IMG/VR virus record: IMGVR_UViG_3300017991_000077
Location: 33,476 to 97,475 of that record
Reading direction: 5' to 3' (one strand)
Length of the DNA stretch: 64,000 bases
Source of the DNA: a virus
Made by a program: the position numbers and the translations under genes. Shown here piece by piece: positions 4,901-63,729 of this stretch. The notes below the pieces were generated by a model, which was given only the letters and a program-made list of their open reading frames with translations, was not told where the DNA came from and searched no databases. Each line of letters starts with the position of its first letter. Positions within the stretch are counted from its first letter, which is position 1.

Positions 4901-5094
4901 CAATAAGGGGTAGATGGGAAATTGATAATTTAATTGGTAGAACTGATGAAACAGATGCTACTGCAGATATTGATTGTGGAGTACCAGACGATATAGACAA
5001 AATAGCTATAGGTAACAATAGACTTATGACCAATCAGTTTGGTGGTTTGATAGAAAATTTAAGAATTTATAATATTCCAACAACAAAGGGGTAA
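1960..5094 (+). CDS. Virion fibre/adhesin, 1044 aa, paralog of the upstream gene, with two CBM-like modules
   Basis: AGGA RBS; LamG-like segment (GCWYYLLAYVNR..FYING); repeated 'GDW...TLSKDTTAPLxEGTQHLR' modules; same C-terminal architecture as the upstream gene. Confidence 0.75.
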   Translation: MEPVIHKMNLKGQFETSDATPTTSALENSIATMFSGEEGVIRVSCKVSAYNKASYGEDYYFGSETTYMYNQHGNNEFDQIDSSSDTTYSETATSALSFSLDDTDDVISMAYTGEAGEDFIWEYEAEIELFVGSLQDWLDLYLTFQIFDGRSGVANLDEDIEVNGTTVSPTFVYYGGDADGTNWIPRTGGQTLTLTATPVPTYNDGSPCLGTNDDSVKFNDGGFYDGTDNDVATEDFVIEVLFKHQADAGRYLISTYDGSTGYILYTNSDNARLYIEDSGGSSTLNTGAVLTPGCWYYLLAYVNRDEASVNGSFFYINGVAVGSGKDSSAVTGTLNTNEFQLGASYLGSAKSTCNLAYCSMWKYSDLFSAGAQGEAEAANLAASRFAQVSGRYPQVFTHDDVLIDGDMEASPIEVIVDGDCEAVGTGDWTATDATLSKDTTAPLNEGTQHLRITSTANTFWASQTILTVGKTYRVTGSARSAGSSAIPKINSVGTVWTGTTSTDWQDFNEIFVATGTVIYFGSSSTHPGIVDFDNIQVLEQDGDWTVTTATLSKDTTAPLYEGTQHLRLTYLSAFNGYAQQAIQIVGHKYRVTGVARSDGTGIPKISEIGATHWTGTTSTSWQPFDITYVALTTALRLQGGTLSAGVYVEFDDVTVTRVDELPIVATRAFAAYLDKIESDGTRKLYYVGSEWLRQCHRNDGTYDIYGYLAEAASTNQVDYSEDIDNVAWTPTQATFHATKIAAPNGVENAIGMVASSVAGNHAIQDSITSSAGTDTVSFWAKKGNQDWVLGYYGLGAAAQCYFDLDNGVVEGTPVNCIGYIEDWGDDWFRCIMVFTGDGAAHSFYVFCAENDGDTSFSGDDSTVSTYVWGVQYEQGRDYATSYIPTSGGVSTRLKDQLEFKGDDGNITNNQQGSIVANILHPDKTPIDAGWIYSLSDGAASADRIYGFTTSSEHYICSMLASVGNAGASAGTVDVFDGIIHTIRGRWEIDNLIGRTDETDATADIDCGVPDDIDKIAIGNNRLMTNQFGGLIENLRIYNIPTTKG

Positions 5095-5559: not shown

Positions 5560-6663
5560 ATGTCCGGTTTTGGTTTAGGGGCATATGGAATGGGTATACC
5601 CTACGGGTCGGTAGTCGCAGGAGGACCTCAAGACTACAGGTCTTTAGGGGATTTCGATTTTTCTGCGGTGTCTCGGAGTGAAGGATATAAGATTCGGATT
5701 ACTTTCACTATTCCGGCAATAGCTGATGCTCCTCAGTGGATTCGTCGTTTACGCATTTTGAGGAAGACGGGAGAATGGCCGCAGTCTTGGGATGACGCAG
5801 ATGCTCAAGAAGTGATCGACGATTATTTCTTTACGGAGGCTACCCACTACATAGACCAAGACGAGTTGGTGCCAAGGCAGACTTATTATTATTCTTTGTT
5901 TGCGCTTCGAGATGACGGTACTTGGGTTAACGACAAGATTTACAACCGAGATTCCGCTTATCCCTATGATCGTTGGGGTTCGGGTTTGAATATGTTTGAT
6001 TCGCTTCCAAGGGGATGGAGGTCAGCCGACGCAGACGAATCGGGAAACCCGTTAGAAAATTTCATGGCCATTTTTGGAGCTTTATCCGATAACATAAAGA
6101 CCGATTGCGAAGCTCTTCTAGACCTCTTCGATATTGATGAACTGCACGATGACTTAGTGTATATCCAAGACAAACGAATCGGTTGGCCTACGTGGTATGC
6201 AGCAGGAGGATTGAAACGAAAGAAGGAAACCAAGGAGGCAGTAGATTTATACAAGCTTCTAGGCAGAGAAGTTGCGTATGAGCAGATGTTAGAAGAGGTT
6301 TCTGGATGGGATGCTTCTATCGAAGAGGGTTGGAAATATATCATGTGGTCTACAGATCTTGAGTGCACTACTCCAGATACTACGCTTCCAGGAATCATCA
6401 CAGACCAAGGTACTCAAGATGATCTTCTGAAGTATACAAACGATAATAATTCGTGGCATTCAGCAAACGGGTTGGGATTATTCATGTCAGAGATTTTGAC
6501 GGTTTCTGATGATCTCTCGCAAGAAATGGTAGATAGATTTGAAGAGCTTCTTGACTGGGGCAAGGCCGGTTTTGTAACGGCTGACTTGATTGTATCCCCA
6601 AAGACAGAAGAGATTTGGTACTCAAATTGGGTTATCGAAGACTGGGATGACGTAATCAGCTAG
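5560..6663 (+). CDS. Baseplate/tail protein (P2 gpI-like tail domain)
   Basis: 'LFDIDE...RIGW...KRK...AVDLYKLLG...YEQMLEEVSGWD' resembles the Tail_P2_I pattern; structural context. Confidence 0.6.
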   Translation: MSGFGLGAYGMGIPYGSVVAGGPQDYRSLGDFDFSAVSRSEGYKIRITFTIPAIADAPQWIRRLRILRKTGEWPQSWDDADAQEVIDDYFFTEATHYIDQDELVPRQTYYYSLFALRDDGTWVNDKIYNRDSAYPYDRWGSGLNMFDSLPRGWRSADADESGNPLENFMAIFGALSDNIKTDCEALLDLFDIDELHDDLVYIQDKRIGWPTWYAAGGLKRKKETKEAVDLYKLLGREVAYEQMLEEVSGWDASIEEGWKYIMWSTDLECTTPDTTLPGIITDQGTQDDLLKYTNDNNSWHSANGLGLFMSEILTVSDDLSQEMVDRFEELLDWGKAGFVTADLIVSPKTEEIWYSNWVIEDWDDVIS

Positions 6664-6672
6664 GCGAGGTAT

Positions 6673-7200
6673 GTGATGAAGATAGTCGGGCGTTGGAAAG
6701 ACAGGTGCTGTAAAAACGGTAGGTGGTATGACGGGGAACACGGTAAATTCGAATGGGATTTTAATCAGATTCAGAACACTTTTGCCACGTTACTCACGTG
6801 TTGGCTTAGAGAAGAAGCAGGCTACAATCGAATAGGCTATATGGGCATCGGGTCTGGATTGATTGGTTGGGATACGTCCCCTCCAGCACAGCCTTACAGC
6901 CAAACAGCCTTGACCACCGAGTATGCGAGAATGACCATCGCTCAAGTAGACTTAGTTTTTATTGACCCAGCTACAGACCTCCCTACAGGTGGTACTCCGA
7001 GTTCTAAGATAGAGATTACCGTCAACATGGGTGCGGGCGATGCCAACGGTACGATGAGAGAATTTGGACTATTCGGAGGCACGGCTACCGCGGCTTTAGA
7101 TTCAGGGGAAATGGTAAATTGGGTTGTTCACAACAAAATTATCAAGTCACCAGCGATATCGATTCAACGCAAAGTCAGGATTGAATTCCAGACAAACTAG
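6673..7200 (+). CDS. Baseplate/tail-collar-like protein
   Basis: 'YMGIGSG...TALTTEYAR...ANGTMREFGLFGG...IIKSP' pattern typical of fibre-attachment proteins. Confidence 0.6.
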   Translation: MMKIVGRWKDRCCKNGRWYDGEHGKFEWDFNQIQNTFATLLTCWLREEAGYNRIGYMGIGSGLIGWDTSPPAQPYSQTALTTEYARMTIAQVDLVFIDPATDLPTGGTPSSKIEITVNMGAGDANGTMREFGLFGGTATAALDSGEMVNWVVHNKIIKSPAISIQRKVRIEFQTN

Positions 7201-9782: not shown

Positions 9783-12524
9783 ATGGGTCAGAGTATTAGT
9801 AAACTGGACATCATCGCGATTACTGCAAGTAACGCTGCAGCTACCAAGCTATGGGAGTTTCTTCGGGATCTCCGAGAAGACGCAGCGAACGCTATCGCAG
9901 GAATCACAACGGTATTCCACAAAACTCAGTTGGGCAGTTCTGTAGAGGACACAGCGAATGCGTCGGACTTAGCGACGGCGTATACACTTGCGAATTCCCT
10001 AAAGGCGAAGCTCAACATTCACTTGGCATCGACAGGTACTACGGGGGCGCACGCAGCGGCTTCCGCAGGGTCTATCACTGCAGCCAATGCAACCACAAGG
10101 GAGACTCTAGTTACGCTGCTCAACGAGTTGAAGGCTGATTACAATACCCATCTCACGGAGTCAGGTGTTCACTTAGTCAACGATTCGACTAACTCGACAT
10201 CTTCAGCTGACGGTATGGGTCTTTCAGATCTTTACGATTTGGCCAACGATGTCAAAGCTCAGTACAACGCACACCGGGTAGAAGCGACCGTGCATAAGAC
10301 CAATGACACTACCAACATAGTGTCTTCGGCAGATGCAACGGATCTATCTTCGGCGTTGACTCTGTTGAATGAGATCGACACCGATTATTCGGCGCACATT
10401 GGAACGGCAGATGTTCACGATGTAGCGGATTCGACGAATGTAGTCACTTCGGCTGATGCAACGACCAGAGATACTCTGGTCACTTTGCTTAACGAGCTGA
10501 AGACTGACTATAACGCACACCGGTCTCAAGCCACCGTGCACGCAGTGAACGATTCGGCCAATGCGGTAACCCATGCGGCCGGAAATCTGGCCACAGACCT
10601 CTATGACTTGGCCAACGACGTCAAAGCTCAGTACAACGCTCACAGAACTCAGGCCACTGTTCACAAGACCAACGATACTACAAATGTAGTAACCGCGGCC
10701 GACGCAACAGACTTGGCTTCTCTTCAGACTTTGCTTAACGACATCGACACTCAGTATGCTGCACACTGCGCCACCGCAGATGTTCACGATGCTGCGGATT
10801 CAACCAATGTCATAGCCTCTGCGGACGCGACGACAAGAGACACCTTGGCCACTTTGCTCAACGAGTTGAAGTTGGACATCAATGCACACAGATCGCAGGC
10901 AAGTGTTCACGCAGTGAATGACACTTCGAATGCGATCACGGCAGCCGACACCAATTTGGCTTCGGATCTTTACGATCTGGCCAACGACATCAAGACTCAG
11001 TACAACGCACACTTGAGCGAAGCGACGGTTCACTCCACGGACGATGCAGTGAATACGGTTGTCGCAGCAAATGCGACCGACCAGGCCACGCTCGAGACTT
11101 TACTCAACGAGATCAAAGTCGACTACAACATTCACAGAGCGCTGGGCGCAGTTCATGATGCGGCCGACTCGACGAACGATGTCTCCTCGGCGAATGCTTC
11201 GGACTTGGCCTCGACTCAGACTCTGTTGAATGAATTGAAAACAGACTACAATGCACACAGAACCCAGGCTTCAGTTCACCCAGTGAACGACACTACCAAC
11301 GTTATCGTAGCAGCCAATGCTTCGGACTTGGCAACATCGATCACGCTGGCGAATGAGTTGAAAACAGACTTCAATCTCCACTTGGCAGAAGCCACAGTCC
11401 ACACCACGGATGACACGAAGAATGTAGTTTCGACTACAAATGCTTCGGACCTCCCGACAGCACAGGCTTTGGCCAACGCCCTAAAAGCGGCCTACAATCT
11501 CCACCGGGTTTTAGTGGCAACGCACTTGATCCCAGACGCAACGAACATTATCGCTTCGGCCAATGCATCCGACTTGGATACGGCCATCGCACTGGCGAAC
11601 GAGATTGCGGCGGATTTCGATCTGCACCGGTCTCAGGTAGGCGTTCACCCAGTTGCAGATGCAGTGAACGACGTTACGGAAGATCTGGCCACGACTTTGG
11701 CTCAGATGGTGACGTTCGTGAATGAGGTCAAGACCGACTACAACGCGCACCTTTCACAGTCCACAGTTCACACCACAGACGACGCGACCAATGTGGCTTC
11801 TTCTGCCAATGCATCGGATGAGTCTTCGGCTTACACCTTAGCTAACGAGATAAAAGCCGATTACAACGCCCACCGGGTTCTCACCGGTATGCACGAGCTG
11901 GCAGATGCGACTAACACAATCGCTGCGGCGGCTGCTTCGGACTTGGACACTTCTATCGCTCTGGCGAATGAGCTGGCTACAGACTTCGATCTTCACCGAG
12001 TGGAGACTGGAGTTCACGCGGTCGACGATGCGGTAAACGACGTCACCCAGGACCAGGCGACAGCCCTCGCAGAGGCAGTGGCTTTTGTGAACGAAATCAA
12101 GGCAGACTACACAGCGCACCTTTCGCAGTCTACGGTTCACACATCGGACGATGGAACCAACACCATTGCGGCAGCGGACGCCACAGACCAGGCTTCGGCA
12201 TTCACTCTGGCCAACGAGTTGAAGGCTGATTACAACCTACACCGGGCGACGACGGGTGTTCACGAGATCCAAGATTCTACGAACACCATTTCAGCTCCTT
12301 CGGCGACAGACCTCGATACTGCTATCGATTTGGCCAACGAGTTGGCAGCAGATTTCGATGTACACAGAACCCAGGCCGGCGTTCACGCAGTGGACGATAC
12401 AACCAACGATGTCACTGAGTCTCTTGCATCCACGGATGCAGCTCTCGTGACCCTAGTGAATGAATTGAAGACTGACAACAACGCCCACGTTATTTCGGCG
12501 ATGACATCAGCAATCATTGAGTAA
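9783..12524 (+). CDS. 913-aa protein of about 21 tandem 41-aa His-containing repeats (probable virion fibre/decoration protein)
   Basis: Strong AAGGAGGT RBS; repeat consensus A(N/D)A(S/T)DLxxxxxLxNE(L/I)KxD(Y/F)NxHxxxxxVHxxxDxxNxxxx. Confidence 0.75.
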   Translation: MGQSISKLDIIAITASNAAATKLWEFLRDLREDAANAIAGITTVFHKTQLGSSVEDTANASDLATAYTLANSLKAKLNIHLASTGTTGAHAAASAGSITAANATTRETLVTLLNELKADYNTHLTESGVHLVNDSTNSTSSADGMGLSDLYDLANDVKAQYNAHRVEATVHKTNDTTNIVSSADATDLSSALTLLNEIDTDYSAHIGTADVHDVADSTNVVTSADATTRDTLVTLLNELKTDYNAHRSQATVHAVNDSANAVTHAAGNLATDLYDLANDVKAQYNAHRTQATVHKTNDTTNVVTAADATDLASLQTLLNDIDTQYAAHCATADVHDAADSTNVIASADATTRDTLATLLNELKLDINAHRSQASVHAVNDTSNAITAADTNLASDLYDLANDIKTQYNAHLSEATVHSTDDAVNTVVAANATDQATLETLLNEIKVDYNIHRALGAVHDAADSTNDVSSANASDLASTQTLLNELKTDYNAHRTQASVHPVNDTTNVIVAANASDLATSITLANELKTDFNLHLAEATVHTTDDTKNVVSTTNASDLPTAQALANALKAAYNLHRVLVATHLIPDATNIIASANASDLDTAIALANEIAADFDLHRSQVGVHPVADAVNDVTEDLATTLAQMVTFVNEVKTDYNAHLSQSTVHTTDDATNVASSANASDESSAYTLANEIKADYNAHRVLTGMHELADATNTIAAAAASDLDTSIALANELATDFDLHRVETGVHAVDDAVNDVTQDQATALAEAVAFVNEIKADYTAHLSQSTVHTSDDGTNTIAAADATDQASAFTLANELKADYNLHRATTGVHEIQDSTNTISAPSATDLDTAIDLANELAADFDVHRTQAGVHAVDDTTNDVTESLASTDAALVTLVNELKTDNNAHVISAMTSAIIE

Positions 12525-57580: not shown

Positions 57581-58500
57581 ATGAAGCTTGTTAAGAAATA
57601 TACTTCTAAAGAATTGATACGGCGATTGCGGCTTCGATATGAAGACACCCAAAAGTATGCTTTTTTGAGCAAGTGGCTAACGGGACCGGGTTTCGATGTA
57701 CTAGTTGGGTGGATGCTGCGGTGTTAGGGTTGTGGCCTTCTGACGGACTTACACGACGAGCTTTCGAGGTAAAAGTATCTCGGGCAGATTTTTTGAATGA
57801 GTTAGATAAGCCCCTCAAGAATTCGTGGGTTCGGAAGTACTTTCATGAATTTTGGTTTGTCGCGCCAGCAGGAGTCATCAAAGAAGAAGAATTGCCGGAG
57901 GGAGATGGTTGGCTCTGTCCTCGTGGAGATGACCAGTTGACTACGAAGAGACATGCAAGCAGAAAAGTCGAGCCGTCACTTGACAACACCTTTTTAGCAA
58001 GTCTTGCTCGGTCGATGGGAAAGGCTAACGAAAAATATAAGGAGGTTGCGACGACTCGTTTTCTTGAAGAAAGTTCTGAGCATCAGAGGGCTTTGAGGTA
58101 TCAGCAGGCTACTGAGCGGTACTTAAAAGAAAGCGGGCAGTACGTTCGAAATTACTCAGGGGAAGATATGGCGAATGAGGTATTCGCTCGATTACAGAAG
58201 TCTTCGATGGATACGAAATATCAAGGGGATTACGAGAGAATTAAGTATCATCTCGAACAGTATCAAGAAACTTTATTTGAGATGTATGACGCGATGACTG
58301 CTCTAGTATTTGTGAATGTATTAGAGACCGATGAGATGGGTGAGCGATTGCACAAATATTTGGCCGATAAAAACAGTCTTACTCTGAGCCACCAGCGAGC
58401 CAGAACCAAAAAATCAAAAAAGAATTACAAAACGAAACAATGGAGTGAGATGTTGAAGACTTTTGATTTCATGAAAGAACGAATAAAAAAGCCCTTTTAG
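57581..58500 (+). CDS. MmcB-like PD-(D/E)xK nuclease-domain protein, with a -1 frameshift at 57661-57667
   Basis: 'VDA..LGLWPS.G....FEVKVSRADF..EL..P.K' motif; the natural N-terminus (MKLVKKY...YAF) is in a different frame. Confidence 0.6.
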
Positions 58501-58517
58501 GGGAATAGGAGTAATGA

Positions 58518-58982
58518 ATGGAGGAGCGTGTTTTGGTAAAAAAGAAAGATGCCGCTGAAATAATCGCAGAACTAAAGGTAGACTTGATAAAATTGAGAAG
58601 TGAATATGGGGAAGTGAAAGAGAAAGTAGAAGAACAAGAAGTAACAATAGGGGCGATAAACCGCACGAACGCAGTGTTGGAACAGGAGAATCTAGACCTC
58701 AAAGAGATAATTGCGCAGCCTTCAAAGCTTCGGGAAGAGTTGAGAGAGTTTGCCGATGCTCAAGAATCTGTTCTTCGGGTTCACGATGAAGATCGTGGGG
58801 ATAGTTGGAGAGATGCTTCGGTAGCTTGGTTATTTCATCGGCTAGAAGGGGAAGTAGGAGAACTTCAGGATGCTTTTAACGATTGTCTTCCTGAGCGTGT
58901 TCGTATGGAGTGCCTCGATGTAGCGAATTTCGCAATGTTTATTTTTTCTAAACTAAAAGGAGAAGTACTGACAAAATTTTAG
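58518..58982 (+). CDS. Coiled coil + MazG-like (all-alpha NTP pyrophosphatase) domain
   Basis: 'RLEGEVGEL...ECLDVANFAMFI'. Confidence 0.6.
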   Translation: MEERVLVKKKDAAEIIAELKVDLIKLRSEYGEVKEKVEEQEVTIGAINRTNAVLEQENLDLKEIIAQPSKLREELREFADAQESVLRVHDEDRGDSWRDASVAWLFHRLEGEVGELQDAFNDCLPERVRMECLDVANFAMFIFSKLKGEVLTKF

Positions 58983-59021
58983 TCTTTAACCTATGAGTTA
59001 CAAATGAAGAGGAACAAAACA

Positions 59022-59690
59022 ATGGCAAAAGAAACGAAGAAAAAAGAAACGAAGAAAAAAGAGAAGAAAAAAGCAACGCTGACTGTCAAGATGACTTTCA
59101 CTGAAGGTCTGTTGGGGACTGCTAGTGCGAACCCAGAATTGCATGAGGAGTATATTGCATCTAAGAGCGCAGACAAGGCCAAGATGAAAGAGGAGCTGGC
59201 CAGTCTGCCAAGCGAAGAACTGATGGATAAGTCGATGACGGTCTTTAGCCGCGACCCCGCAGGAGATCCTTTCTTATTTGATTATCAGATTAAGGGCTAC
59301 CTTAAAGAGACAATCGGTGCGATGGTGGATTTTGATCCAATAGTCCTTCAAGAAAAGCCTTCAGTCAAACTGTCGAAGTATACCTACAAGCGGTACATCG
59401 ATAAGTATATCTTCGTATTCCCACGAAAGATTCCTTTGAGGATGCCCGAAGGCTCTACGGTAACGACGTGCACAAGGCCCCTCAGAGCTGAGACGATGAA
59501 AGGGGAACGGGTTGCTTTGGCGACCAGCGAAGAAGTACCGAAGGGCACGGAGTTGGAGTGTACTATCTACTGGAGGCACCCAAAGTTTGAGGAGTGTATT
59601 AGAGACGCGTTGGAATACGGAGAATGGTCCGGCATAGGCCAGTGGCGGAATTCAGGAAAAGGGCGGTTTGTTTGGGAGGAATTGTCCTAA
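59022..59690 (+). CDS. Stand-alone Cas7/Csm3-like RAMP-fold protein
   Basis: RAMP hallmarks in order: beta1 'LTVKMTFTEGLLG'; 'RD..GDPFL...QIKGYLKE' (cf. P.ipgss.KG.lr); 'EEVPKGTELE'; terminal Gly-rich loop 'GIGQWRNSGKGRF'. Confidence 0.65.
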   Translation: MAKETKKKETKKKEKKKATLTVKMTFTEGLLGTASANPELHEEYIASKSADKAKMKEELASLPSEELMDKSMTVFSRDPAGDPFLFDYQIKGYLKETIGAMVDFDPIVLQEKPSVKLSKYTYKRYIDKYIFVFPRKIPLRMPEGSTVTTCTRPLRAETMKGERVALATSEEVPKGTELECTIYWRHPKFEECIRDALEYGEWSGIGQWRNSGKGRFVWEELS

Positions 59691-59785
59691 GACGCTAAGG
59701 CATGGTTGTGCCAGGCGAGGTAAGAGCATAGCCTGGATTGGCATTTCTCAGTAATAGTATGGCGATGAGTAGAAAGCAAAGGAAT
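59691..59785 (+). repeat. Short pentamer-periodic array directly after the RAMP gene (candidate guide RNA)
   Basis: GGC-AT GGT-TG TGC-CA GGC-GA GGT-AA...; delimiter-like sites at 59694, 59720, 59751 and 59776. Confidence 0.6.
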
Positions 59786-59789
59786 CGTT

Positions 59790-61823
59790 ATGAAATTTAA
59801 GGAATTTAACTCGTTGTTGCAGAAGCATGTTCAGGCGATGGCAAAAGACCAACAGTATTTGTTTATGGTGGATCTCGATAAGGACACTGTTTGGGATACA
59901 TACTTGAACAGTTATCCAGAGGGAACAAACCCGATTTTTAGAAAACGTCGCGAGCATGATTGCAGTTGCTGTCGGCATTTTATTCGGGATTTAGGAAGAG
60001 TCGTTGCCATTAAAAACAGGGAAGTGATTACTATCTGGGATTTCGATACGAAGAGTGATGAGTATCAGCCCGTAGTGAATGCTCTTTCAGACCTCATAAA
60101 GTCGAGACCTATTGTGGATGTCTTCATCCCTACTACGAAGTCAATCGGGACAAAGAATAATATAGAGCTTTTGGACAGCGGGGGTGTCCTTGAGTGGAAT
60201 CATTTTTATACCCCCGTACCGAAGTCTTTGGTGACATATGGATTAAGCCAGGCCAGTACTGTTCAAGGACAAATGAGGGATGTTCGTAACGTATTCAAAA
60301 GGTCGCTTAAAGAAATCAGTATCGAGGCGACGAAGACCGTTTTAGAGCTGATTGCTCAGAAGTCTCTGTACAAGGGAGAAGAGTGGCAGTCTGTTTTGAA
60401 GCAGTTTAAAAAGCTTCAGGAGGAGTATTCGAGTATAGACAGTCGGAGTATTTCAGAACTTTATTGTTGGGAAACTTCAGTTCGAGTAGGGCCGATTATT
60501 GGCAAGATTCGAAATCATTCTATCGGAGTTTTGTTAACGGACCTTTCGGAAGGAACAGACCTTGATGCGGCCGTTAGTCGTTATGAGGCCATTGTAGCGC
60601 CTACAAATTACAAACGGCCAAAGGCTATCTTCACCAAGATGATGATTCAGTCAGCTCAAAAGACTGTCAAAGAGTTGGGTTTTGAGGCTTCTTTGGGAAG
60701 ACGGTTCGCAGTACTCGAAGACATTACAGTGCCGAATACCCTTTTCGCCAATCGCAGCGCGACTAAGATTATGACGGGCGATGTCTTTGAGGAGATGGCA
60801 GCGGAGATGCCAGATGGACCGAAGAATCTATCCAAAGTAGAAGAGATAGATATTCGGACTTTCGTCGAACAAGTGTTGCCAAAGGCTACAAGCATCTCAG
60901 CCCTTTTAGAAAACAAGCACGAGAAAAATATGGTTTCTTTGATTGCTCCAAAAGACATCGGCAGCAAGACGATGTTCAAATGGAATAATAATTTTTCTTG
61001 GGCTTATTCGGGCAATATCACGGATAGCATGAAAGAGCGCGTGAAGTCTGCCGGAGGTAAGACCGACGGAGTTCTTAGGTTCTCTATTCAGTGGAATGAC
61101 GACGCCGATACGCCAGACGATTTGGATGCGCATTGCTATGAGCCAAGAGGGAATCTTATCTATTTTAGTAATATGCGGAATCAGAATACGGGTGGACATT
61201 TGGATGTCGACATAACACACCCACATAAAGAAGTTGCTGTGGAAAATATTACGTGGCCGAGTCTACGTAGAATGGAACAAGGAAGGTATGTTTTCTTGGT
61301 ACATAACTATGCTTCACGAGGAGGTAGGGCCGGTTTTTCTGCGGAAATTGAGTTCGATGGCAATATTTATTCGTTCGAGTATCCAAGGCCTTTGAGGCAA
61401 GGTCAGAAGGTGAACGTAGCTGAAGTGCATTTTGATGGGAAAGCATTTACGCTCAAAGGGCTTTTGAAGTCTCAGCATTCTTCTAAGGAGATTTGGGGCC
61501 TTTCTTCAAACAAGTTTCATCCCGTAACGGTGGCGTCGTTCTCGCCCAATTATTGGGATAAACAAGACGAGATTGGTCACCGACACCTCTTTTTTTTCCT
61601 CGATAAATGCGAGAATCCAGAGAGCCCAAACGGCTTTTTTAATGAGTTCTTGAATCAAAATTTGATGGAACATAAGAGAGTATTCGAGGCTTTAGGGGCC
61701 AAGATGCGGGTAGACGATTCAAGCAATCAGTTATCTGGACTTGGTTTTTCAATGACGAAGAGAGCACAACTAGTAGTGAAAGTAACAGGTACTTTTGAGC
61801 GAATGCTCAAGGTAAATTTTTAA
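59790..61823 (+). CDS. Conserved large phage protein (677 aa) with a YfaP/TerD-like C-terminal domain
   Basis: 'R.EHDCSCCRHFI' N-terminus; 'DLDAHC.EP...LDVD...VENITW' domain. Confidence 0.65.
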   Translation: MKFKEFNSLLQKHVQAMAKDQQYLFMVDLDKDTVWDTYLNSYPEGTNPIFRKRREHDCSCCRHFIRDLGRVVAIKNREVITIWDFDTKSDEYQPVVNALSDLIKSRPIVDVFIPTTKSIGTKNNIELLDSGGVLEWNHFYTPVPKSLVTYGLSQASTVQGQMRDVRNVFKRSLKEISIEATKTVLELIAQKSLYKGEEWQSVLKQFKKLQEEYSSIDSRSISELYCWETSVRVGPIIGKIRNHSIGVLLTDLSEGTDLDAAVSRYEAIVAPTNYKRPKAIFTKMMIQSAQKTVKELGFEASLGRRFAVLEDITVPNTLFANRSATKIMTGDVFEEMAAEMPDGPKNLSKVEEIDIRTFVEQVLPKATSISALLENKHEKNMVSLIAPKDIGSKTMFKWNNNFSWAYSGNITDSMKERVKSAGGKTDGVLRFSIQWNDDADTPDDLDAHCYEPRGNLIYFSNMRNQNTGGHLDVDITHPHKEVAVENITWPSLRRMEQGRYVFLVHNYASRGGRAGFSAEIEFDGNIYSFEYPRPLRQGQKVNVAEVHFDGKAFTLKGLLKSQHSSKEIWGLSSNKFHPVTVASFSPNYWDKQDEIGHRHLFFFLDKCENPESPNGFFNEFLNQNLMEHKRVFEALGAKMRVDDSSNQLSGLGFSMTKRAQLVVKVTGTFERMLKVNF

Positions 61824-61833
61824 GGAGAAAACA

Positions 61834-62202
61834 ATGTTCGAAAAAGCATCGAGAAAGAAATTGCGGTTTAATTATCACGGGTCAATATCAGTAGAAGATC
61901 TGTGGGATCTCTCCGTCGAAGACCTGGATGATATGTATGGACTGCTGAGAACTGAGCAGAAGGAAACAAGCACCGAAAGTCTTTTGAAGTCGAAGAGGCT
62001 TGCGGGAACCAATCTTGATCTACGTATCAATCTTGTGAAACATGTCGTCGAGACCAAATTGCAGGAAGCCGATGAGAGAGAAAATCGAGCTATTGTGAAA
62101 CTTCAGAAAGAGAAGATCGCAGAACTTATTCAGGCAAAGAAGGACGATGGTTTGAAGGAAATGACCGTTGAAGAACTTCAAGAGAAGATGGACGAACTCT
62201 AG
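61834..62202 (+). CDS. Conserved phage protein, partner of the upstream gene
   Basis: 'MFEKASR.KLRF...G..SVEDLWDLS' motif; AAGGAG RBS. Confidence 0.65.
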   Translation: MFEKASRKKLRFNYHGSISVEDLWDLSVEDLDDMYGLLRTEQKETSTESLLKSKRLAGTNLDLRINLVKHVVETKLQEADERENRAIVKLQKEKIAELIQAKKDDGLKEMTVEELQEKMDEL

Positions 62203-62950
62203 CAGGGCAAAGCAAAGGCATGGGGCCGTGGTGCTGGTCATTGCAAAGGCATAGTCAAGGCGAAGGGGAGTGAAGCTACGTTATGCTCCGGTAAGGTTTT
62301 GAGAAGTTGGGTTTTGCGTTGAAATGGTTGTGTGTCGCGTTGAAATGGTTGTGTGTCGCGGAGATTAGTTCGGCTTTAGCAAAGCATAGATGAGATAAGC
62401 ATCAGTGAAGCGTAGGCAAAGCAAGGTACTATGACGTAAGGCCCAGGCGTAGAGTGGAGCTGTTTGGATTGGAACTGCAAAGGCACTGAAGAGTTGAGCA
62501 CCAGAACAGTACGGAATTGACTCGTGTCGTAAGCAAAGGCAAGGTAGAATCTGGTTTTGAGCGGCGATGGAGAAGCGGTGTGCTGACATGCGAAGGCAAT
62601 GAAATTCCTGGACTTGAGGCGTGTTGAAATGCAAAGGCATGGAAATGAACCGGAAAGCGTAGGCAGCGTTTGGAACGGCATCACTAAGGTACTGTGCTGC
62701 GAAGCATGATTCAGCAAAGGCAAAGAGATGTGAGGATACGAAATGCGATGGAATTGCGTAGACTCGAGACGCTAAGACTGTGCAGAGGCATAGAAAGGGA
62801 CGGTTAAGTGAAGGAAAGGTCGCGCTAGGTGCGGCAATGCAAAGCAAAGGCAGGACATAGTTCAGTAAGACACTGCAGAGGCGAAGTAGGTCCAAGAAGT
62901 GCTGCGGGATCGCGGGGTGAGGTGTAGACCGGTGTAGAAGTGCAAGGGCA
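62201..62950 (+). repeat. 750-bp non-coding array of nGnnn pentamers with GCAAAGGCA-type delimiters (candidate guide-RNA array)
   Basis: G recurs at every fifth base; exact GCAAAGGCA at 62212, 62243, 62477, 62533, 62631, 62714 and 62844, plus variants; spacings are mostly 26/31/36/41; the track shows no + strand ORF. Confidence 0.8.
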
Positions 62951-62967
62951 GAAAGGAGAGTATAAGA

Positions 62968-63378
62968 ATGAATATTCCGATAGTTAGATTAGAAATTGAG
63001 GGAATGAAACACTCTGTTCAAACGGCTTTGACTGAGTATATTATGCAGATGGATGAGGATATTCATGTAGCGATTGAAAAGGTAATTACTCCTGATAATA
63101 TTTCCTTGGTCATTTCTGATTCGGTAGCACGCACATTAAAAGATGTGTTGCAGACCGAAATAGATAGCCTGTTTAGGTATGGCGATGGACGTAGGGTCCT
63201 AAGAAAAACGGTAAGAAGTTTGATATGGGAACATCTTTCTAAAGATAGGGTGACTACAGATGACACGGGAACAGATACTTCAGAATCGGTTAGAGGATCA
63301 GAATCAGGAGATAAAGAATCTGAATCTGAAGATACAGATGATGGCGAAGAAGATGGAACATCTGAAGGTGGAGAATAA
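62968..63378 (+). CDS. Hypothetical protein with acidic tail
   Basis: AAAGGAG RBS at the end of the array. Confidence 0.55.
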   Translation: MNIPIVRLEIEGMKHSVQTALTEYIMQMDEDIHVAIEKVITPDNISLVISDSVARTLKDVLQTEIDSLFRYGDGRRVLRKTVRSLIWEHLSKDRVTTDDTGTDTSESVRGSESGDKESESEDTDDGEEDGTSEGGE

Positions 63379-63468
63379 TAATCTGAGATTCTTTGCGAAT
63401 ATTCGGCTTGAGGTTTCTAGTCCACGGGTCCCTGTAACAACGCTTCCAGGAAAACAATAGGGGTTTCC

Positions 63469-63729
63469 ATGTCAGCTACGTCCATCATGAGGGTTCTTCA
63501 GGTGTTGAGAGAAAAGCAGAAGAAGAGGCTGTCTGTTCAGGAGAGAAAAATTCAAGATGTTCTGTTAATGAAAACTTTCGAAACCTATGATGATCCGCAT
63601 GAGTTTTTTAAGTTTCTACGATTAGCCGCCTTAGAGCAAAAGTCGATAATGCGTAAAAGAAAAGGACAGCCCAAGCCTTTGACGGCGACAATTGAAGAAT
63701 TGATAGGGCATAGCGGACTAGAAAAATGA
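63469..63729 (+). CDS. Hypothetical protein
   Basis: ORF with a purine-rich RBS. Confidence 0.45.
   Translation: MSATSIMRVLQVLREKQKKRLSVQERKIQDVLLMKTFETYDDPHEFFKFLRLAALEQKSIMRKRKGQPKPLTATIEELIGHSGLEK

What the first reader, a model, noticed from the sequence alone, without database searches (positions are those of the whole stretch)
62201..62950. Array grammar: delimiter spacing follows 5n+1, and a 21-bp duplication preserves the register
Seen: delimiter starts (GCAAAGGCA or variants such as GCGTAGGCA, GCCCAGGCG, GCGAAGGCA, GCGATGGA, GCAGAGGC) lie at 62212, 62243 / 62410, 62441, 62477, 62533, 62564, 62590, 62631, 62657, 62683, 62714, 62745, 62782, 62808, 62844, 62875, 62916, 62942. The gaps are 31 / 31, 36, 56, 31, 26, 41, 26, 26, 31, 31, 37, 26, 36, 31, 41, 26; all but one are 5n+1. 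An exact tandem duplication GCGTTGAAATGGTTGTGTGTC (62316-62357) is 21 bp, again 5n+1. Inference: each unit is n pentamers plus one extra base that breaks the phase, marking guide boundaries or processing sites. The array appears to diversify by in-register slippage or recombination rather than by Cas1-type spacer acquisition. Caveat: some variant delimiters were picked by eye with the pattern in mind.
Basis: partly seen in the sequence, partly recalled or inferred. Interest (0 to 1): 0.75.

Follow-up and report, generated by a model that had tools for sequence, protein, structure and literature searches.

The report
Staggered VIPR guide-RNA array in phage
The five-base rhythm with one extra base every 21-41 bases is real; it is the guide-RNA array of a phage VIPR system, a CRISPR-related system built on a Cas7-like protein and first described in 2026 preprints, so this is a clean new example of a known kind.

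Summary
The 765-nt intergenic tract 62203-62967 has a G at every fifth base. The phase is reset by one extra base about 25 times, mostly at GCAAAGGCA-like junctions. G autocorrelation peaks at lags 5, 21, 26, 31 and 36 and not at 25, 30 or 35.

The tract belongs with the 228-aa gene at 59004-59690, whose model is a Cas7/Csm3-type RAMP. In 76 of 80 related viral loci the same kind of array, co-oriented, directly abuts a homologue of this gene, and none lies elsewhere. Across 84 arrays, 78% of breaks are +1, the junction logo is GCAANGG(C/A)A, and units are mostly 26, 31 or 36 nt.

This matches VIPR systems (Vipr protein plus pentamer-coded vrRNAs; bioRxiv 2026). It fits their "staggered vrRNA arrays" and YNNNG/NNNNG repeat variants, which the authors did not confirm by RNA sequencing.

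In-register growth is supported. The 21-bp duplication is exactly one unit, 26 of 34 indels of 5 nt or more among relatives are multiples of 5, and no Cas1 is present. Unit processing and targets remain untested.

This scan has already found the same layout on other phage DNA several times.

The parts
59004..59690 (+). vipr-like gene: 228-aa stand-alone Cas7/Csm3-type RAMP ending in the G-loop GIGQWRNSGKGRF, with a Lys-rich N-terminal extension
   Evidence: AlphaFold model pLDDT 81. Foldseek PDB top hits are type VII Cas7 and Csm3 (E 6e-8), with 148 hits at E<=1e-3; every hit listed is a Cas7-type RAMP subunit or its effector complex. VIA-align Z 11.8 to Csm3. Profile against PDB Cas7: E 5.5e-5. 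2149 homologues, no Pfam family.
59691..59789 (+). short G-phased pentamer stretch (about 3 units, three +1 breaks) directly after the vipr stop
   Evidence: HMM parse.
59790..62202 (+). two-gene cassette (677 aa, phrog_1735; 122 aa, phrog_2018) lying between the vipr gene and the main array; not part of the system in relatives
   Evidence: PHROG hits. No homologue of either gene next to vipr in 80 related loci. The 122-aa protein occurs in 339 unrelated phage records.
62203..62967 (+). main staggered array: about 25 units of 21-41 nt (a few irregular), each made of G-H-D-N-N pentamers plus one extra base at a GCAAAGGCA-like junction
   Evidence: Per-phase composition: G 0.93; C .41 / T .28 / A .27; A .45; N; N.
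62316..62357 (+). exact tandem duplication of one 21-nt unit (four pentamers plus 1)

Best explanation
The tract is the vrRNA array of a VIPR-type system, and the gene at 59004-59690 encodes its Vipr-like RAMP.

By analogy with the solved SUSP1 system (inferred): the array is transcribed with or after the vipr gene. Protomers of the RAMP bind one pentamer each. They grip the fixed G, and more loosely the following non-G base, and present variable bases for gapped pairing with target DNA.

The array has the 'staggered' layout. Every 4-7 pentamers one extra base, placed between a near-constant xGCAA pentamer and a full GGCA pentamer, shifts the register by +1. A filament assembled in one register therefore cannot run on, and the RNA is divided into about 25 short abutting guide units.

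Arrays evolve by gain, loss or duplication of whole pentamers or whole units and by point changes at non-G positions, not by Cas1-type spacer capture.

Shown here: the grammar, the RAMP fold, the gene-array linkage and the in-register indels. Inferred: transcription, filament assembly, the unit boundaries as functional ends, and the DNA-silencing role.
For: - Grammar in the window.
- RAMP fold.
- Linkage: 76 of 80 IMG/VR loci with a homologue carry a co-oriented G-phased array abutting the gene (57 downstream, 12 upstream, 7 both), and none lies elsewhere in 857 kb.
- Family-wide grammar: 1145 of 1469 breaks are +1, and 961 of these are GG doublets. The junction logo is G(.98) C(.94) A A N G G C/A A. 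Unit lengths are 21:28, 26:212, 31:260, 36:164, 41:49.
- Conservation: the mismatch rate between related arrays is 2.0% at the G against 6.2-9.2% at the other four positions.
- Published class: Vipr RAMP plus pentamer vrRNAs, seven types, 'staggered arrays with overlapping vrRNAs', and alternative NNNGG, YNNNG and NNNNG repeats (bioRxiv 10.64898/2026.04.26.720920). One protomer binds per repeat, with the G-loop D177/W178/R179 reading GGY (10.64898/2026.04.26.720927).
- G-loop match: the G-loop aligns with that of the SUSP1 family. W and R are kept, while D177 becomes Q and H17 becomes T. D177 and H17 are the two residues that read the first G, which these pentamers lack.
Against: - Sequence similarity to the reference Vipr family is weak: hhalign E 7.8e-4, probability 25%, G-loop only. 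tblastn does not reach SUSP1.
- No conserved accessory (vap) gene was found beside the gene.
- No 3' tail or pseudoknot was recognised, and Rfam is silent.
- Units carry only 5-7 pentamers, so little specificity if only two bases per pentamer pair.
- A crude target search gave no enrichment for the 1-nt skip rule.
- There is no RNA evidence.
- I could not see fig. S18 or the supplementary tables, so the identity of the published 'staggered' layout with this +1 grammar rests on its legend.
Confidence: 0.8

Rival explanations
1. The array gives one long scaffold or decoy RNA that the RAMP coats in short register-limited stretches. It would have a regulatory, sequestering or anti-defence role, and the variable bases would not act as guides.
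For: All four non-G positions vary at similar rates (6.2-9.2%), rather than two clearly hypervariable positions. Units are very short. No target signal was found. No vap partner was found.
Against: The only experimentally studied relatives use such RNAs as guides. The array varies strongly between close relatives while keeping its frame, as expected for specificity-bearing positions.
Confidence: 0.12
2. The tract is a DNA-level element: an array of protein-binding iterons such as an origin, partition site or packaging site. The 5-bp phasing would reflect half turns of the double helix.
For: 26, 31, 36 and 41 bp approximate multiples of 5.2 bp. The tract lies about 1 kb from the end of a linear contig.
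Against: The array is strictly co-oriented with a Cas7-type RNA-binding protein gene and abuts it in 76 of 80 loci, at varied genome positions. The fixed base is strand-specific (G, never C-phased antisense arrays). Exact 5n+1 rather than about 5.2n holds up to 61 nt.
Confidence: 0.04
3. The pattern is a chance product of purine-rich composition plus delimiters picked by eye.
For: Three of 19 delimiters were not confirmed.
Against: Autocorrelation peaks lie 6-10 sd above shuffles. The HMM has no motif prior. The same grammar appears in 84 independent arrays.
Confidence: 0.01

Closest known systems
VIPR systems with 'staggered vrRNA arrays' and YNNNG/NNNNG repeats (bioRxiv 10.64898/2026.04.26.720920, main text, methods and fig. 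S18 legend)
   Same: A phage-borne small stand-alone RAMP with an abutting, co-oriented array of 5-nt repeats. There is one or few fixed bases per repeat. Abutting units are offset by 1 nt, so that the end of one marks the start of the next.
   Different: I could not check whether this clade is among the 667 published loci, or which of types I-VII it is. The paper gives no junction consensus or unit-length statistics in the text held, and this layout was not confirmed there by sRNA-seq. No vap gene was recognised here.
Type II VIPR of Escherichia phage SUSP1 (Vipr YP_009199429.1, vap1, four vrRNAs)
   Same: A protein of about 200 aa with an RRM core, thumb hairpin and C-terminal G-loop (G-x-G-x-W-R...G-R-F). 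Pentamer-coded RNA lies next to the gene. It is phage-encoded.
   Different: SUSP1 vrRNAs are runs of about 15 contiguous GGT/GGC-NN pentamers with no register break, followed by a structured tail and each a transcript of about 100 nt (paper). Here only one G is fixed (G-H-D-N-N), units have 4-7 pentamers, there is no tail, and about 25 units abut. Protein similarity is confined to the G-loop.
Cas7 backbone subunits of type III and type VII CRISPR-Cas effectors (Csm3, Cmr4, type VII Cas7)
   Same: Best structural matches (Foldseek E 6e-8, Z up to 11.8). These proteins form a filament along a guide RNA, with a thumb that flips bases periodically.
   Different: They have a 6-nt periodicity and are sequence-independent. 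They need Cas5, Cas10 or Cas11 partners and repeat-derived handles. Here there is no cas operon, no CRISPR repeats and no Cas1.

Membership tests
VIPR system | Small stand-alone RAMP (single RRM core, thumb, C-terminal glycine-rich loop) | tested here: met
   Model pLDDT 81. Foldseek PDB: every hit listed is a Cas7-type RAMP subunit or its effector complex (E to 6e-8). VIA-align Z 11.8. Invariant G-loop in 24 homologues.
VIPR system | Homology of the protein to a reference Vipr (SUSP1 YP_009199429.1 family) | tested here: inconclusive
   hhalign profile-profile E 7.8e-4, probability 25%, 48 columns of the G-loop only. The single-sequence alignment spans the full length but at E 0.025. tblastn does not reach SUSP1. 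No solved Vipr structure is in the PDB copy used.
VIPR system | Intergenic array of tandem 5-nt repeats with fixed and variable positions, next to the gene | tested here: met
   Window. 76 of 80 related loci.
VIPR system | Canonical GGY/NN repeat | tested here: not met
   Only one G is fixed (0.93 in the window, 0.87 family-wide). The next base is C/T/A and the preceding base is free. This fits the alternative YNNNG/NNNNG repeats named in the preprint's methods, and a full GGC occurs only at junctions.
VIPR system | Accessory vap gene in the locus | tested here: inconclusive
   None of the window's neighbours recurs beside the gene in 80 loci, and no universal neighbour cluster was seen. Some published systems may lack one.
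VIPR system | Predominantly viral or proviral location | tested here: met
   The genome is a 97.5-kb virus record. 562 related loci were found in IMG/VR.
VIPR system | vrRNAs expressed and bound by the protein | not testable with these tools
   No RNA run holds the stretch. Contigs of the one DNA run do not cover the array.
VIPR system | Gapped target recognition (1-nt skip rule) | tested here: inconclusive
   A 12-nt gapped-word search of 2 Mb of local phage DNA showed no excess for skip 1 over skips 0, 2 and 3. The control was flawed and the power low.
CRISPR array / CRISPR-Cas | Direct repeats of about 23-50 nt separated by acquired spacers, with cas1/cas2 | tested here: not met
   The junction motif is 9-10 nt. 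The 'spacers' are constrained to a G every 5 nt. There is no Cas1 (PF01867) in the genome and no CRISPR family in Rfam.

The most novel reading that the evidence does not exclude
The +1 punctuation is a distinct way of packing guides. A very large, mostly uncultured VIPR clade would use about 25 ultra-short units (5-7 repeats, one turn of the filament each), cut or insulated at GCAANGG(C/A)A junctions without ribozymes, tails or separate promoters. With only one protein-read G per repeat, up to three or four bases per pentamer may be free to pair. That would be a different reading rule from the published GGY/NN, 1-nt-skip code.
Probability: 0.25. Interest if true: 0.7.

Novelty: new member of a known kind. 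Interest (0 to 1): 0.4.

Why it matters
VIPR is a months-old class of RNA-guided DNA recognition, and only its type II (SUSP1-like) has been studied at the bench. This window belongs to a much larger clade: 2149 protein clusters in the protein search, against 529 for the SUSP1 family. Its arrays follow a strict, quantifiable grammar of one fixed G, +1 junctions and 26/31/36-nt units.

How such short units are made, how much specificity they carry, and which bases pair are open questions that this locus could help answer. For the scan itself it is one more well-documented example, not a discovery.

Tried and rejected
- Rfam (gathering thresholds) and tRNA scans of the window found nothing.
- blastn of the tract against 50,697 phage records found no match.
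- The downstream 136-aa gene has no relatives.
- Sequencing runs: no RNA holder is listed. The one DNA run (sediment, small share) gave contigs on the flanks only and none on the array.
- Promoter and terminator scans gave nothing above shuffles in 58900-63500.
- Target search with gapped 12-nt words against about 2 Mb of local phage DNA showed no enrichment for any skip length. The shuffled control was inflated by loss of redundancy, so the result is uninformative.
- BFVD fold search did not list SUSP1 Vipr, only same-family RAMPs and two archaeal-virus proteins.
- Before finding the VIPR literature I considered CsrA-type sponge RNA, TRAP-like binding sites, iterons and a packaging site. I rejected these because the array is linked to a Cas7-fold gene.
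- The minus-strand 176-aa ORF 62365-62895 is a by-product of the purine-rich + strand.

Full report
**Setting.** The window is the last 64 kb of a 97,475-nt linear virus record, 94% complete by CheckV. All substantial genes are on the + strand. The finding covers a 765-nt gene-free tract, 62203-62967. It lies between a 122-aa gene (phrog_2018) and an orphan 136-aa gene. The tract is G- and A-rich on the + strand: G 268, A 227, T 153, C 117.

**Observation.**
- The listed delimiters and gaps are correct.
- With no hand-picking, GCNNAGGC occurs 13 times here, against 48 on the + strand of the whole genome.
- GCAAAGGCA with at most one mismatch occurs 10 times here out of 27 in the window. Shuffles give a mean of 12.8.
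- G autocorrelation is 0.36 at lag 5 and 0.22, 0.32, 0.34 and 0.23 at lags 21, 26, 31 and 36. At lags 25, 30 and 35 it is about zero or negative. The shuffle sd is 0.036.
- No other 765-nt window of the genome shows this pattern.

I trained a five-phase HMM on 84 arrays, with equal penalties for all four kinds of register break.
- In the window it breaks, 25 of them 'one extra base'.
The canonical-looking site at 62533 and the weak one at 62916 do not.
- The 37-nt exception holds two breaks.
- The 21-bp exact duplication is one complete unit, four pentamers plus one base.

**What it belongs to.** A pattern search in IMG/VR for two GCAAAGGCA copies 15-35 nt apart returned mostly noise. Four loci, however, had the same grammar, and in three of them the array starts at the stop codon of a gene whose product ends ...GIGQWRNSGKGRF. 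That protein is the homologue of window ORF 59004-59690.
- The family has 2149 members in the 5.8-billion-protein collection. Members are about 200 aa, have no Pfam or PHROG family, and come mostly from metagenomic phage contigs.
- Its AlphaFold model (pLDDT 81) matches type VII Cas7, Csm3, Cmr4 and gRAMP repeats (Foldseek E to 6e-8; Z to 11.8).
- Its profile hits PDB Cas7 over the G-loop (E 5.5e-5).

I fetched 80 related IMG/VR loci.
- In 76 of them a G-phased array, always co-oriented, directly abuts the gene: 57 downstream, 12 upstream, 7 on both sides.
- No such segment occurs anywhere else in 857 kb.

In the window the gene and the main array are separated by a two-gene cassette (59790-62202) that relatives lack. 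About three phased units remain directly after the stop codon (59691-59789).

**Family-wide grammar**.
- The pentamer profile is G 0.87, then C 0.54 / A 0.25, then A 0.50, then N, N.
- Of 1469 breaks, 1145 are +1, and 961 of these are GG doublets.
- The junction logo is G C A A N G G (C/A) A. That is a near-constant xGCAA pentamer, one extra base, then a full GGCA pentamer.
- Unit lengths are 21 (28 cases), 26 (212), 31 (260), 36 (164), 41 (49) and 46 (15).

**Known class.** Notes of this scan on other genomes pointed to VIPR systems. I read the papers myself.
- bioRxiv 10.64898/2026.04.26.720920 describes phage-borne Vipr RAMPs with vrRNAs made of GGY/NN pentamers that recognise DNA by a gapped code. 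It defines seven types and mentions 'staggered arrays with overlapping vrRNAs'. The fig. [quoted passage not shown] It also names alternative NNNGG, YNNNG and NNNNG repeats. The staggered layout is not among the layouts the authors confirmed by sRNA-seq.
- bioRxiv 10.64898/2026.04.26.720927 shows one protomer per repeat. G1 is read by H17 and D177, G2 by R138 and W178, and Y3 by a pocket that includes R179.
- bioRxiv 10.64898/2026.10.21.760802 reports 99 period-5 clusters, 21 of them non-canonical.

**Comparison with the reference.** The SUSP1 locus (L200) has contiguous GGT/GGC-NN runs with no break. Profile-profile alignment with a SUSP1-family alignment is weak and limited to the G-loop (E 7.8e-4).
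- Within that loop W and R are kept, and D177 is Q.
- In the single-sequence alignment H17 is T.
- These two residues read the first G, which the pentamers here lack. This is an inference from a weak alignment.

No conserved vap-like neighbour was found.

**Evolution of arrays.**
- Between related arrays (80-99.9% identical) the fixed G mismatches at 2.0%. The other four positions mismatch at 6.2, 6.2, 6.5 and 9.2%.
- Unique indels of 5 nt or more are 5 nt (15 cases), 10 nt (5) and 20 nt (6), that is 26 of 34. Three more are 5n+1. Some of these events may be the same one seen in several pairs.
- Tandem copies of whole units (26 nt, L097) or of two pentamers (10 nt, L170) occur in relatives.
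- The genome has no Cas1.

**Verdict.** This is a real, statistically overwhelming feature. It is the guide-RNA array of a VIPR-type system in the 'staggered' layout, so a new member of a recently described kind. Transcription, unit processing, the pairing rule for this G-only repeat and the targets are all untested.

Noticed in passing
window 59790-62202: A two-gene cassette (677 aa, phrog_1735; 122 aa, phrog_2018) sits inside the VIPR locus, between the vipr gene with its three residual units and the main array. Homologues of the 122-aa protein occur in 339 phage records of unrelated groups (Salmonella, Klebsiella, Escherichia and Bacillus phages), which suggests a mobile or frequently exchanged module.
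   Followed up: partly
window 59004-59078: The Vipr-like protein has a Lys/Glu-rich N-terminal extension (MKRNKTMAKETKKKETKKKEKKK) encoded by a 15-nt tandem repeat (TRF 59027-59078). Most homologues start about 25 residues later, and a few others (P0009, P0089) also carry basic extensions.
   Followed up: no
L170 ~5000-5060, L195 ~7060-7110, L162 ~5590-5640, L097 ~11640-11690: In relatives the array ends with a G+C-rich hairpin preceded by an A-run. Read on the opposite strand, this looks like an intrinsic terminator facing the array. No equivalent was seen at the end of the window's array.
   Followed up: no
L126, L134, L136, L139-L142 (both sides of the gene); L121, L127, L128, L130, L133, L147, L179, L193, L198, L199 (upstream only): The array position relative to the vipr-like gene varies (downstream, upstream or both), but the orientation never does.
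   Followed up: partly
window 57673-58982: Upstream neighbours are a PD-(D/E)XK-like 'DNA repair protein' (phrog_5429) and a 154-aa protein of unknown family (no PHROG or Pfam hit above threshold). Neither is conserved next to vipr in relatives, so they are probably not vap genes.
   Followed up: partly
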